DNA from: Lingula anatina
Taxonomy: Eukaryota > Animalia > Brachiopoda
NCBI GenBank assembly: GCA_051362555.1
Contig: CM120648.1
Span: forward strand, 5,018,587-5,082,586
Reading direction: 5' to 3'
Length of the DNA stretch: 64,000 bases
Shown: piece after piece, positions 4,031 through 64,000 of the stretch
Layout of the letters: every line of letters starts with the position of its first letter
How positions within the stretch are numbered: position 1 is the stretch's first letter
Program-made: the position numbers and the translations under genes
The notes under the pieces: generated by a model
What the model saw: the letters and a program-made list of their open reading frames with translations, nothing else
The model's database searches: none
What the model was told of the DNA's origin: nothing

Positions 4031-4513
4031 AGGCCTACTGCATACACAGAGGTCAACATGCATGCACAGGTTTTGAACAGAATAATTGCGATAACCGCCA
4101 GTTATGTAGTAAATTGGAAATTATTATTTTTCTTTGTGTTAATTGCTTACGGTGTATTTCTTTTGAAATTTTGATTCTCATATGAAGGGTTGCTATCTTT
4201 TTAACAAAATATGCAGGAATGAGATATCGGGTCGCAGTGTCAGGCCTTGACTGTTGGCACATGACCTCACTTGCACGTTACTCGTCATGTGACCAAACAT
4301 GACCTAGTTTACATAACCTGTGCAAACGAAGGGGTTTGGTCCTGTGCTATGCCACACATTTTATGGGAATTGACTGTTATATCGGCTTGGTGTGGTCTTA
4401 AACTTACAGAGGGTATTCTCAGGACGCCTGTGCACGCTGTGAAGTCACTTAACTACATTTTATTTGGAGATTCTGTCAAGATATTCGAGAGAGAAAAAGA
4501 CCGACATTGTACA

Positions 4514-7079
4514 ATGGCTTCGGCCTCGAAAGGCCTGCCGGCCGAAGTGGCCAAGATTGGCAAAAACCTAGTCAAAAGTGCGACATCAGGAGAGGTAACC
4601 AGATACGATTTTTCTAAATCAGAAAAAGGTTTAAGTTTTGAAATTTTAATTTCAGGTGGTCAAAGATAATTTCAATATTCGTATATCTTAACTTTACCCT
4701 GCAAATCCAACGTACACTTTACTCAGTGTATGTACATGTATTATCGGCGTGTACAGTAGTACTGGAGTATCTCCACTTGAAGTCCAAGGTCTTCTGTCTC
4801 GTTCAGTCGTAAACAGTCATAGTGCCCTGTGGAATTGCTATATCTTAGTTTAACCAAGAGGATTGTTTAATAAACAATGTGGAATTACAAGCTTAAAGTC
4901 TCTGTAGATCTCTTCTAAGTTTGATTTTATTATTATTATTACTGCTACTACATGTATGAAGCTGTTCAACAATCTCACTCTTTTATACCAACTCATTTAA
5001 TGCAAGAGAAAGTCTTTTGAACTCTTAATGAAAACATTTTAACTAGAGTATACAGTCTTTTTCGCTGATTAAATACATGATTGCCTTTTGTCAAGTCAGA
5101 TCTCAGAACAGAAGAATTCTTTATAATTACAGATGGTTGCCATAGAAAGCTTCTGGGAAAAACAAGCATGCATGATCACATTTTTGCGTCGTTTTGGATG
5201 ACAGTTCTGTCGCCTCGCCTCACGCGAGATCAGCACCCTGAAGCCCCAGCTGGACTCCCATAACGTACGCATGGTTGCAGTCGGGCTGGAGGAGGTTGGG
5301 GTGGAGGACTACATGAAGGGGAACTATTTTTCAGGAGGTACATGACAATGAAACCGAATTTCTGTGTAATTTGAAGAAAAATCAATTTTTTTAATACCGT
5401 TACAGTATTTACCATTGTGACTTGTACATGCTTGGACTTCTGTCTATAGTTTAGTCTTTCTTGACTCTTGATAATAATAGCAATGATGATAATGATTATT
5501 ATAATAGTAAGGATAATTTAAATAATTATTTTAAAATACATATCTTTTTGCCGCTTTTAACATATTTTTACATTAACCAAAATTTTAGCACTTTTCTCTT
5601 AATATGTGGTGAATAAAGATGTCCTAATTCTAAAAATGCACGAGAAGCATGCACATTGACACTTTCTCAGCTTAGTCATGTCATGTGTAATATCTGGCCG
5701 CAAGCACCACCTGGTTTAGGCCTGGGTAACAAACACTCAATTAATGTATTGTTATTTCATTCTTTAAATTTTAATTTAAATGTGTTTTCTATTTGCAGAG
5801 GTTTATATTGATCAAAAACAGCAATGCTATAAAGACATGGGGTATAAAAGGTAAATATGAAATAATATTATGTTGATATTAATATTGAAAAAGAATATTA
5901 GTTTTTACTCACTAGTTTTGGTGGGCGAAGACAAGCAGTTATGTTGAAAGGTCTATTAAATACAGTATAAGTAAATACTTTGTTACTGATATCGTCATGG
6001 CTAAATATATATTTCAGATATGGTATACTGAGTGGTCTTATGTCCATCCTTAAGAAAGTGTCAAGAGCAGCTATGGCAAAGGTAAAGTCTTAACAAACCA
6101 AAAATTATAATTAAAATAAGGAGCTGGTGTTGGATGATCTATTTTTTATACCTAATGATTACGCTTACACAGAAACACTCATAAATGTATTACTAATCTG
6201 AAGTGTTACCCACTGTGGAAAATCCTAAAAGATTTTCAAGAGTACCTGTCCATTCACTGTAACACAAGTCTAAGAATTAATTTAAATTATTTTTTATTTC
6301 CAAATGATTCATTTATTTTACAGGCAAAAGAACAAAACATCACTGGTGATTTTAAGGGTGATGGGTTCCAAAATGGTGGAACCATAATTGTATCTGCAGG
6401 TATGTACAGTGTAGGAAAGATCTACAAAGTTTATCCAAATTTAAATGACCAAAGTAATGAAATTCCAGCTAAAGATAACCAGATTTACATTAGGTTTAGG
6501 CACAAATTTGCTGCATATGATAATGATTAGAGTATATGATATTATTGAGTAGAATTCAGAATCAACCTAGACTTGTTATAAGGGAGTGCAGGCTATTAAA
6601 GGACTTTGTGCATTGTTTTTTGCTTTTTTTTGTCCTATAGGTGGCAGTGAGTGTCTTCTGAACTGGCGTCAAGAGAATCCAGGAGAACATGTTCCACTAG
6701 AAGATGTTCTCAAAGCACTTGGAATAGATGGTAAGATATTTTACTTTGTATCTGGTTAATTTGCACCACCAACTTGAGAGCCTGGGCTGCACAAGGTTTT
6801 TACCTGGAGCTCATTTTTTCCTGTACTTAGGCATTAAGCATTTGGCATTAAAGCCTTATGTTACAAAAAGTAAATAATTTGTATAATAAACATTTGAACT
6901 TAAACTTACTTGCATTCGATTTGTATTTCAAAGCAACAAAATTCATCTTAATAAATATGCAGATGTTGTTCACAATTTCAAAACAATTATTTATAACTAT
7001 AGGTGGAGCACCTGCCACAGAAAAGAAAGCTGAGGCGCCAAAAGTGGTTTGTGAAGATGATGTCTGCTACAAGAAATAG
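4514..7079 (+). CDS. PRXL2B: Peroxiredoxin-like 2B / prostamide-prostaglandin F synthase (FAM213B, SelU family) selenoprotein, 7 exons, about 214 aa, Sec at codon 50
   Basis: Exons 4514-4594, 5133-5337, 5799-5850, 6018-6081, 6324-6399, 6641-6730, 7003-7079. Translation includes FLRRFG-[TGA 5199-5201]-QFCR, RMVAVGLEEVG, GDFKGDGFQNGGT, QENPGEHV and the C-terminal VCEDDVCYKK; family similarity continues in frame past the TGA. Confidence 0.9.
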
Positions 7080-7878
7080 GCAGGTTTATTGGGAAAAGAG
7101 CTTTTGTTAAAGTTATATATATATTTCAAAGTCATTTTTAAAAATTAAATTTCAATAGCCAGCAGGCCAAGGCAATTTATATGGATAGGTTTAAAATCAA
7201 AATTCAAAATCGTACATGTACTGCGAAGGAAGTGTGATGGTACTTTTCCCTTGAAGTAATCTTTAAAAGTCTAAAATGCTAAACAATCTTGAACTTAATA
7301 TTTAGTTCTTTTCATATCTTAATAATTTTTTAAAATGAAAATACCATTGAGTCGACAAGTTAAAAATTAGCAATTCCATAGAATTTTCGAAATTTTTAAT
7401 TTTCAGAATGGGCTTAAAGGACTAGCGAAAGACCTCTGCAAGCAATGCTAAGGAATTGACACATTCGAAATAGGCTAAATGGACAAAAACAAGTCCACCA
7501 AATATTAAATAATATGGATCCCATAGAGATGATGCTTTGATTGGTAATTTAATTAATATTTTTTTTGTGAATTTTTTATTACAAATTAGAGCACAATGCA
7601 TACCCAGGTGCTTAAAGCAGGCTAATTGTTCAAAATAGCATATTTGCAATTTAGAAAGTCATTTATTTGACTATAAAAACTTTTTAATTGAACAAATTAT
7701 AAAAGTTGTAAGATCATAAGCTTTTAGAATGATAAAAAGTGTAAAGCTAAGCAGAGGGTTTTCTTGGACCTTTTTTTATTTATTTTTGTTCATCTCAGCA
7801 TATTAGTTTTCCGTAATATTAAATGTACCAGTTAAGAAAACAAGTACCATATCACACCCAGACACTGTCTCCTCTTGC

Positions 7879-7951
7879 ACAGAGTTGCCACCTATGAAGC
7901 TAGACTGGGAATCTTTTGGGACTGGTCTGGTGGATGACCTTTGACCTCTGT
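7879..7951 (+). promoter_or_regulatory. SECIS element (type II) in the PRXL2B/SelU 3' UTR
   Basis: ATGAA core (7894) and GGAT (7932); helix II GCTAGACTGG/CTGGTCTGGT (10 bp with G-U pairs); unpaired GAA then mini-stem TCT...GGA; helix I ACAGAGTTG/TGACCTCTGT. About 800 nt after the stop codon. Confidence 0.85.
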
Positions 7952-8189
7952 CAAGGTCAGACAGTGTTCAAGGCTGTGAATATGGGCCTTGTCACTCTTG
8001 TTTAAGCCAGTTGACCTTTCAGTGTAATACTTTTAAAAGATTTAACAAAAATGGACTTTAGCCATATGTTTGTTGACAGTTTATTCAATTGGCATGACAT
8101 TTGTTCAGGGACTTTATATAAACAACAATTTTTTTCTAAAATAATTAATAAATACATTGAATTGGAATTCCTTGTTACAATTGTTATAT

Positions 8190-8450
8190 CACATGTGAAA
8201 ATGTCTCATTTAAAGCCCACTTATGGTTCTCAATCTGTCCTAGAACAATGTTTTTCTCATTTTATGAAAATTGATCTTAATCTGTTCTAGGACATTCTGA
8301 AGGACTTCCAAAAAACAGTTCTCGAACTGTTACATTATGTGACATTCATTACGGAACAATGTTAGAACTGTAAAAAAAAAACATACACCAAATGTTAAGA
8401 ACAGATTGAGAACCTTAAGTGAACGTTAAACAAGACAGAATTTCACTGGG
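8190..8450. mobile_element. Degenerate MITE-like element with about 55-bp inverted arms
   Basis: cacttatggttctcaatctgtcct (about 8218-8241) is inverted at agaacagattgagaaccttaagtg (about 8398-8421); outer arms gtgaaaatgtctc / gacagaatttcac. Confidence 0.5.

Positions 8451-10196: not shown

Positions 10197-58862
<48,666 letters not shown>

Positions 58863-61339: not shown

Positions 61340-64000
<2,661 letters not shown>

What the first reader, a model, noticed from the sequence alone, without database searches (positions are those of the whole stretch)
4514..7951. PRXL2B/SelU-family selenoprotein: UxxC active site plus SECIS
Seen: in-frame TGA at 5199-5201 in RRFG-U-QFC, exactly at the first Cys of the family CxxC motif, with five more intact exons downstream and a canonical type II SECIS fold in the 3' UTR. 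Established: mammalian PRXL2B has Cys here; the SelU family shows scattered Sec/Cys use across animals. Inference: a Sec-dependent form of a prostamide/PGF-synthase-like thioredoxin-fold enzyme that automated annotation would truncate or call a pseudogene. It also has a C-terminal CxxxxC that could act as a second redox centre.
Basis: partly seen in the sequence, partly recalled or inferred. Interest (0 to 1): 0.75.

Follow-up and report, generated by a model that had tools for sequence, protein, structure and literature searches.

The report
Selenocysteine form of prostaglandin F synthase
This transcribed invertebrate gene carries a UGA "stop" exactly where the human enzyme prostaglandin F synthase (PRXL2B) has its catalytic cysteine, plus a selenocysteine-insertion-type hairpin in its message, so it very likely makes a selenium-containing version of the enzyme, a form already described in other invertebrates.

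Summary
Real, but a known kind. Seven coding exons give 214 aa with TGA (5199-5201) as residue 50, aligned to catalytic Cys44 of human PRXL2B (PDB 9US9). RNA reads show all six coding joints and no listed change at the TGA. Downstream of it, 12 of 13 listed variants are synonymous (P about 1e-6). The SECIS (AUGA-12nt-AA...GGAU) extends to 7864-7965 and holds none of 26 listed substitutions (P 5e-4), though Rfam misses it. TGA stands at the same codon in 31 of 48 related loci. The C-terminal CxxxxC is a family trait (84 of 118 homologues), not special. Sec-type SelU3/PRXL2B in non-deuterostome invertebrates was published in 2012 (PMC3473315). Earlier scan notes call this genome a brachiopod (unchecked), which fits, and the scan found a SelU3 SECIS on other DNA before (e1-9977891). 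Sec incorporation and the substrate are untested.

The parts
4327..4513 (+). 5' UTR (start approximate); holds an in-frame ATG at 4349 and a 12-codon uORF from 4363
   Evidence: 7 molecules end at 4327 in X2, depth 16-61 over 4354-4507; variants here are 4 nonsynonymous / 3 synonymous in the extended frame, as expected for non-coding DNA
4514..4594 (+). coding exon 1, start ATG in strong context
   Evidence: joint to exon 2 in 49/50/4/17 reads
5133..5337 (+). coding exon 2 with RRFG-U-QFC active site (Arg46, Arg47, Sec50, Cys53)
   Evidence: PDB 9US9 E 2.8e-17, aligned to C44-V-V-C47
5199..5201 (+). in-frame TGA, predicted selenocysteine codon (residue 50)
   Evidence: sequence; no variant row among the 40 listed of 128, at depth about 130-210 in X1 and X2; TGA at this codon in 31 of 48 loci
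5799..5850 (+). coding exon 3
6018..6081 (+). coding exon 4
6324..6399 (+). coding exon 5
6641..6730 (+). coding exon 6, with Pro173 (equivalent of human Pro167)
7003..7083 (+). exon 7: linker, C-terminal Cys206-x4-Cys211, TAG at 7077-7079, 4 nt of 3' UTR
7084..7406 (+). 3' UTR intron (GT-AG, 323 nt); an alternative joint fits a GC donor right after the stop codon (inferred)
   Evidence: 34/16/10/0 reads for the main joint and 5/3/4/11 for the alternative
7407..8110 (+). exon 8, 3' UTR; main 3' end near 8110, an AATAAA at 8147
   Evidence: stranded depth falls from 31-46 to under 5 after 8107; 11+13 (X3) and 11 (X1) molecules begin at 8109-8110; AATAAA
7864..7965 (+). SECIS element: long basal helix, core AUGAA (7894-7898) / GGAU (7932-7935), helix II 7899-7908 with 7922-7931, apical AA 7910-7911, 2-bp helix III
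   Evidence: covered at depth 6-33 on the mRNA strand, no listed substitution, one 1-nt deletion at 7944 in X7 and X8 that keeps helix I

Best explanation
The gene is a spliced, expressed PRXL2B (SelU3) family member whose UGA at codon 50 is very likely read as selenocysteine under the direction of the hairpin in its 3' UTR, giving a thioredoxin-fold enzyme that likely reduces peroxide bonds with a UxxC centre. Shown: exon structure, UGA position, SECIS motifs, transcription through the SECIS, purifying selection after the UGA. From established eukaryotic Sec biology: SBP2 binds the GA/AG kink-turn core and recruits eEFSec with Sec-tRNA, so UGA50 is recoded; when selenium is short, termination 499 nt before the last junction would expose the mRNA to nonsense-mediated decay. 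Inferred from the human enzyme (PMC12938796): Arg46/Arg47 position an O-O bond, the Sec50 selenolate attacks it, Cys53 resolves the intermediate as a selenenylsulfide, and an NADPH-fed reductant (likely the thioredoxin system) restores it. The substrate is likely a lipid endoperoxide or hydroperoxide; that it is PGH2 giving PGF2-alpha is plausible (about 0.4) but untested. The flexible C206-x4-C211 tail may shuttle electrons to the active site (about 0.3).
For: UGA aligns with Cys44 of human PGFS, PDB 9US9. The spliced protein is 41% identical to mouse and 47% to a fish PRXL2B over residues 11-211, tail included; Arg40, Arg41 and Pro167 equivalents are kept. All six coding joints are seen in 4 of 4 RNA runs, with no listed change at 5199-5201. 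12 of 13 listed variants after the UGA are synonymous against 22-27% expected, P 1e-7 to 2e-6. The SECIS fits UGAN/KGAW plus apical AA (PMC3753652 passages); helix II pair probabilities are 0.70-0.88 in a 251-nt context. 0 of 26 listed substitutions in 7700-8110 fall in 7864-7965 (P 4.6e-4) or 7879-7951 (P 0.005). TGA stands at the same codon in 31 of 48 covered loci, TGY in 17. SECIS-like hairpins follow 8 of 13 TGA cDNA-like loci and 0 of 5 TGY ones. A 61%-identical UGA relative (L002) folds at pLDDT 87.8 with human PGFS as best match, E 2.8e-21.
Against: No direct evidence of Sec in the protein. Rfam finds no SECIS here, though it also found only 1 weak hit (L003, below the gathering score) in 20 loci, 8 of which have pattern SECIS elements. 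The SECIS fold energy is not significant on its own (z -1.44). My own 3-sequence covariance model gave only a misaligned E 1 hit. The TGA-SECIS association is not significant after collapsing near-duplicates (5 of 9 versus 0 of 5, P 0.063), and no SECIS was found in the closest relative L002 (438 nt of 3' sequence held). Variant tables were cut (88 and 87 weaker rows hidden), only 6-26% of each run was read, and short reads cannot prove that one molecule holds both UGA and SECIS. No PRXL2A or PRXL2C sequences were in the tree. Sec machinery and a cyclooxygenase gene could not be checked (no genome held).
Confidence: 0.88

Rival explanations
1. The gene is a selenoprotein as above, but it works mainly as a general thiol-disulfide or peroxiredoxin-like antioxidant rather than on prostaglandin-type substrates; PGF synthase activity would be a later vertebrate specialisation.
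For: Relatives with the same RRFGCxxC motif occur in intronless loci on long contigs (L049, L050), which I take to be microbial (inferred). After PGFS, the nearest folds are ResA and PrxQ/Bcp. A cyclooxygenase was not checked in this animal.
Against: Arg40/Arg41/Pro167, which PMC12938796 links to PGH2 recognition, are all kept. Marine invertebrates contain PGF2-alpha and other prostaglandins (PMC6669704 passages).
Confidence: 0.45
2. The TGA is a true stop or an assembly error, and the locus is a pseudogene or makes a 49-residue peptide.
For: The mRNA has a UGA 136 nt before a junction, a classic decay configuration; Rfam finds no SECIS.
Against: Reads list no other base at 5199-5201 at depth 130-210; 12 of 13 downstream variants are synonymous; the same TGA is in 31 of 48 related loci; the SECIS is depleted of variants.
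Confidence: 0.02
3. UGA is read through as Cys or Trp without selenium, and the invariant 3' UTR stretch is constrained for another reason, such as the DR1-like nuclear-receptor motif at 7935-7947.
For: 24 of 150 database homologues show W at this column; a perfect DR1-like motif (name recalled) lies at 7935, the only copy in the window.
Against: W is a gene-caller reading: P0009 and P0012 match loci at 99% and 97% identity that carry TGA there. The gene ends at TAG and nothing suggests a changed code. The 7944 deletion in two runs breaks the DR1-like motif but keeps helix I, and the invariant stretch covers the SECIS core upstream of the motif.
Confidence: 0.03

Closest known systems
SelU3 (= prostamide/prostaglandin F synthase lineage) Sec-forms of invertebrates, Jiang et al. 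2012, PMC3473315 (section 8 read whole)
   Same: Same subfamily and same Sec position. The paper reports 8 invertebrate SelU3 proteins, of which the 3 Cys forms were all deuterostome, so a Sec form in a non-deuterostome is the expected state.
   Different: Brachiopods were not among its 6 species. Its single early Sec-to-Cys switch is too simple: named Cys forms also occur in spiders, tick, insects and flukes, and a spider Cys form is sister to W(UGA-like) forms in my quick tree (SH-aLRT 99).
Human PRXL2B / FAM213B / PGFS (PDB 9US9, 9USA; PMC12938796)
   Same: Thioredoxin fold, RRFG-CxxC position, Arg40/Arg41, Pro167-Gly168; alignable over the whole length (39-47% to vertebrate forms).
   Different: Sec instead of Cys44; Gln-Phe instead of Val-Val inside the motif; Asn instead of Ser at the P-1 position; an intact C-terminal CxxxxC, whereas 7 ape and Old World monkey rows, human included, end without the second Cys.
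SELENOU1 / PRXL2A of fish, birds and platypus (PMC3316567, PMC13134290 passages)
   Same: A Sec-containing paralogue in the same SelU family.
   Different: A different branch. Those papers found Sec only in SELENOU1 in their vertebrate-centred sets; none of the 150 best exon-2 hits carries RRPG (PRXL2A motif, recalled).
Deinococcus FrnE (C-terminal CXXXXC relay; PMC8945050 passages)
   Same: An N-terminal CxxC plus a C-terminal CxxxxC on a tail, which in FrnE helps regenerate the active site from thioredoxin reductase.
   Different: FrnE is a DsbA-family bacterial protein; this is an analogy only. The PRXL2B tail is missing from many members and has not been tested.

Membership tests
Eukaryotic selenoprotein gene | In-frame UGA aligned to a conserved redox Cys of homologues | tested here: met
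Eukaryotic selenoprotein gene | Coding constraint continues after the UGA | tested here: met
   12 of 13 listed variants synonymous, P 1e-7 to 2e-6; homology to residue 211
Eukaryotic selenoprotein gene | SECIS within the transcribed 3' UTR | tested here: met
   reads on the mRNA strand cover it in 7 of 7 runs laid; main end near 8110; no long reads to show one molecule
Eukaryotic SECIS element | Core UGAN/KGAW, helix II, unpaired apical AA, helix I (PMC3753652) | tested here: met
   AUGAA/GGAU, 10-bp helix II, AA 12 nt after AUGA, basal helices
Eukaryotic SECIS element | Match to an Rfam SECIS covariance model | tested here: not met
   no hit at E 10 or gathering; the model also missed 7 of 8 pattern SECIS elements in related loci, so this is weak
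Type II SECIS | Additional apical helix III | tested here: inconclusive
   2 predicted pairs, probability 0.68-0.70
Eukaryotic selenoprotein gene | Sec machinery (tRNA-Sec, eEFSec, SBP2) in the genome | not testable with these tools
   no genome held; if the genome is Lingula as earlier notes say, PMC5330540 Table 3 lists 2 tRNA-Sec and 34 selenoproteins
Eukaryotic selenoprotein gene | Sec actually incorporated | not testable with these tools
   needs 75Se labelling, mass spectrometry or ribosome profiling
PRXL2B / SelU3 | Best full-length similarity to named prostamide/PGF synthases, with RRFG-[C/U]xxC, Arg40/41 and Pro167 equivalents | tested here: met
   135 of 150 exon-2 hits carry the RR[FWLM][GAD] motif, 0 carry RRPG
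PRXL2B / SelU3 | Pfam PF13911 AhpC-TSA_2 above cut-off | tested here: inconclusive
   exon 2 alone: 23.7 bits against cut-off 27; full-length relative P0220: 78.6 bits; the spliced protein was not scanned
PRXL2B / SelU3 | Groups with PRXL2B to the exclusion of PRXL2A and PRXL2C in a tree | tested here: inconclusive
   falls among animal PRXL2B rows near vertebrates, with no starred set holding it; no PRXL2A/C rows were available
PRXL2B / SelU3 | Reduces PGH2 / prostamide H2 to the F2-alpha product | not testable with these tools
   needs an enzyme assay
FrnE-type C-terminal relay | C-terminal CxxxxC that contacts and re-reduces the active site | tested here: inconclusive
   motif present and common (84 of 118), but the tail is unplaced in the model of L002 (pLDDT about 50) and absent from 7 of 11 UGA-type cDNAs

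The most novel reading that the evidence does not exclude
Ancestral animal PRXL2B was a two-centre selenoenzyme: the acidic C-terminal CxxxxC tail is a FrnE/thioredoxin-reductase-like swinging arm that re-reduces the UxxC site. Lineages lost Sec repeatedly (vertebrates, spiders, insects, flukes), and apes and Old World monkeys also lost the arm, so this gene preserves the complete form and human PGFS is doubly reduced.
Probability: 0.25. Interest if true: 0.5.

Novelty: new member of a known kind. Interest (0 to 1): 0.24.

Why it matters
As an annotation, it is a well-supported selenoprotein that ordinary gene callers tend to cut or misread: 9 of 150 homologues begin after the site and 24 carry W there. 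It gives a natural Sec counterpart of a human enzyme whose structure was only solved in 2026, so it is a ready system for asking what selenium adds to endoperoxide reduction and whether the conserved, unstudied C-terminal CxxxxC is a redox relay. It does not change what is known about the family's existence or its distribution among invertebrates.

Tried and rejected
Rfam scans gave no SECIS in the window. A covariance model from three related SECIS elements was too narrow: it recovered only its own inputs and one extra copy, missed the four other known hairpins, and gave only a misaligned E 1 hit here; uninformative. MAFFT did not align the SECIS elements structurally, so no pair-covariation count was made. 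The word-based homologue search with exon 2 found nothing. No RNA holder was listed in the run index; raw reads under the same species label were used instead. No whole genome is held. The protein-atlas look-up gave no result. An N-terminal extension from the in-frame ATG at 4349 was rejected: its variants are 4 nonsynonymous / 3 synonymous, and 4514 has the stronger context. The idea that the host is a deuterostome, which would contradict PMC3473315, was not supported: the TRIM search gave only 24-35% hits, best named in a hemichordate, too weak to place the animal, and earlier notes on this genome say brachiopod. The careful tree did not finish; the quick tree is reported. PMC6885538 (mollusc selenoproteomes) is not held; the supplement of PMC3473315 was unreadable; text searches of the supplements of PMC5330540 and PMC13134290 found no Lingula or SelU rows. 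No complex prediction was run: the human dimer is solved, so a pass would say little.

Full report
Observation. The gene has seven coding exons (4514-4594, 5133-5337, 5799-5850, 6018-6081, 6324-6399, 6641-6730, 7003-7079) with GT-AG introns. It encodes 214 residues, with one internal TGA at 5199-5201 as residue 50 and Cys at 40, 53, 105, 164, 206 and 211. Exon 2 matches human prostamide/prostaglandin F synthase (PDB 9US9, E 2.8e-17), and the TGA aligns with Cys44 of its CxxC. A SECIS pattern scan of both strands gave 3 hits in 64 kb. Only the one at 7894 has a stable helix (-12.7 kcal/mol); simulated sequence yields 0.0026 such hits per kb.

RNA evidence. Raw reads under the same species label were laid twice; 6-26% of each run was read. 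In one search (X1, X2, X4, X7) all six coding joints appear in 4 of 4 runs, and the stranded libraries show a + strand RNA. No variant row lies at 5199-5201, where depth is about 130-210 in X1 and X2. Only 40 of 128 rows were shown, but rows with far fewer reads were among them, so a fixed or heterozygous TGC/TGT in those two runs would have been listed. The reads add a 3' UTR intron at 7084-7406, which puts the SECIS in an eighth exon, 491 nt after the stop and 986 nt after the UGA on the mRNA. In one search (X3, X5, X8, X1) the SECIS is covered at depth 6-33.

Selection. Of the 40 listed rows, 8 are in the 5' UTR, 4 in the coding sequence before the UGA (all synonymous), 13 after it (12 synonymous, plus K197Q in the linker) and 15 in the 3' UTR. 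With 22-27% of random changes synonymous, P is 1e-7 to 2e-6. This argues against a pseudogene or a 49-residue product. In 7700-8110, none of 26 listed substitutions falls in 7879-7951 (P 0.005) or in the longer fold 7864-7965 predicted before the reads were laid (P 4.6e-4); 87 weaker rows were hidden. The one listed change inside it, a 1-nt deletion at 7944 in X7 and X8, keeps helix I (-20.6 versus -20.3 kcal/mol).

The SECIS. It has the core AUGAA/GGAU, which fits UGAN/KGAW (PMC3753652, passages), a 10-bp helix II with pair probabilities 0.70-0.88, AA 12 nt after AUGA, a 2-bp helix III and a long basal stem. Against it: no Rfam hit, fold z-score -1.44, and no proper hit with my own narrow model. 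Rfam also gave just one sub-threshold SECIS hit in 20 related loci, so its silence weighs little.

Relatives. Of the 150 best exon-2 hits among 1.84 billion representatives (294 at E 0.001 or better), 112 have CxxC, 24 WxxC, 9 begin after the site and 5 are other. Two W proteins match fetched DNA at 97-99% identity with TGA at that codon, so W is a gene-caller reading. Of 50 metagenome loci, 48 cover the codon: 31 TGA, 11 TGT, 6 TGC; many are near-duplicates. Among 18 cDNA-like loci, SECIS-like hairpins follow 8 of 13 TGA and 0 of 5 TGY loci; collapsed to groups this is 5 of 9 versus 0 of 5, P 0.063. The closest relative, L002 (61%), has TGA and the tail but no hairpin in the 438 nt held. Its model (pLDDT 87.8, tail about 50) matches human PGFS best, E 2.8e-21. 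The spliced protein is 41% identical to mouse and 47% to a fish PRXL2B over residues 11-211, keeping the equivalents of Arg40, Arg41 and Pro167. A quick tree of 58 rows places it among animal PRXL2B without strong support and without PRXL2A/C outgroups; Sec and Cys forms are interleaved.

The C-terminal CxxxxC. It is present in 84 of 118 homologues that reach the tail region (5 have CxxxC, 29 none), including ordinary vertebrate Cys enzymes; 7 ape and Old World monkey rows lack the second Cys. It is present in only 4 of 11 translated UGA-type cDNAs. It is therefore a dispensable family trait. A relay role has a precedent in Deinococcus FrnE (PMC8945050, passages) but is only an analogy here.

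Mechanism. Shown: gene structure, UGA position, SECIS motifs, expression, constraint. From established Sec biology (recalled): SBP2/eEFSec recoding, and decay of the mRNA when recoding fails. Inferred from human PGFS (PMC12938796, part 1 of 6 and passages): the two arginines position an O-O bond, Sec50 attacks, Cys53 resolves, and NADPH-derived electrons regenerate the site; that thioredoxin is the carrier is my inference. I put Sec recoding at about 0.95, peroxide reduction by UxxC at about 0.85, and PGH2 as the physiological substrate at about 0.4. Deleting the mouse gene prevents prostamide F2-alpha formation (bioRxiv 2020.04.01.020768, abstract start and two passages), and marine invertebrates contain prostaglandins (PMC6669704, passages), but a cyclooxygenase could not be checked here.

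What is known. PMC3473315 (section 8 whole; supplement unreadable) equates SelU3 with prostamide/PGF synthase and reports Sec forms in invertebrates, with its 3 Cys forms all deuterostome. PMC3316567 and PMC13134290 (passages; figure S17 of the latter not seen) found Sec only in SELENOU1 in vertebrate-centred sets. A deuterostome host would therefore have been surprising. My own attempt to place the animal was inconclusive. Earlier scan notes, unchecked, call this genome the brachiopod Lingula, which fits the published pattern. PMC5330540 Table 3 (one passage) lists 34 predicted selenoproteins for Lingula anatina, so this gene may already be among them; I could not see the list. Searches listed no paper naming this gene in a brachiopod. 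The scan noted a SelU3 SECIS with a long basal helix in another genome (e1-9977891).

Verdict. Observation confirmed; interpretation supported; a new member of a known kind. Interest 0.24. The open and testable parts are the enzyme's substrate and the role of the tail.

Noticed in passing
window 10200-55400 (-): Exons of a CLC chloride channel gene: Voltage_CLC hits at 53992-54189 and 49338-49577, CBS at 48201-48566. CLCN6/7-like by recalled motifs; the last exon is probably at 10200-10415.
   Followed up: partly
window 14766-16724 (+): Intronless 652-aa RING / B-box / NHL (TRIM) ORF, apparently nested in an intron of the CLC gene on the other strand; only 24-35% hits.
   Followed up: partly
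window 61893-63710 (+): Enolase exons running off the window. PRXL2B, CLCN6 and ENO1 all lie on human 1p36 (recalled), a possible trace of old linkage.
   Followed up: no
window 7077-7407 (+): 3' UTR intron 4 nt after the stop, with two donors; run X7 uses only the alternative one. Both keep the SECIS, unlike human SELENOS, where 3' UTR splicing removes it (PMC3628699 abstract).
   Followed up: partly
window 8224-8306: Inverted repeat just past the 3' end, with reads from both strands and many loose ends; likely a dispersed MITE-like repeat.
   Followed up: no
window 7935-7947 (+): Perfect DR1-like direct repeat (name recalled) overlapping the SECIS 3' strand; single copy in the window; broken by the 7944 deletion in X7 and X8.
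   Followed up: partly
window 4349-4513 (+): In-frame upstream ATG (55 extra codons) and a 12-codon uORF from 4363 in the 5' UTR; could tune translation.
   Followed up: partly
L009 1125-1179 and 1359-1412: Two SECIS-like copies in one related transcript (47 and 67 bits with model R1).
   Followed up: no
L039 2913-3395: Intronless relative (55% GC) with TGA at the site but Ala in place of the resolving Cys (UxxA).
   Followed up: no
P0186, P0200, P0201, P0230, P0233, P0236, P0240: Ape and Old World monkey PRXL2B rows end without the second tail Cys, whereas mouse, fish, amphibian and reptile rows keep CxxxxC.
   Followed up: partly
P0125: 955-aa protein joining AhpC/TSA-like domains to a protein kinase domain.
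   Followed up: no
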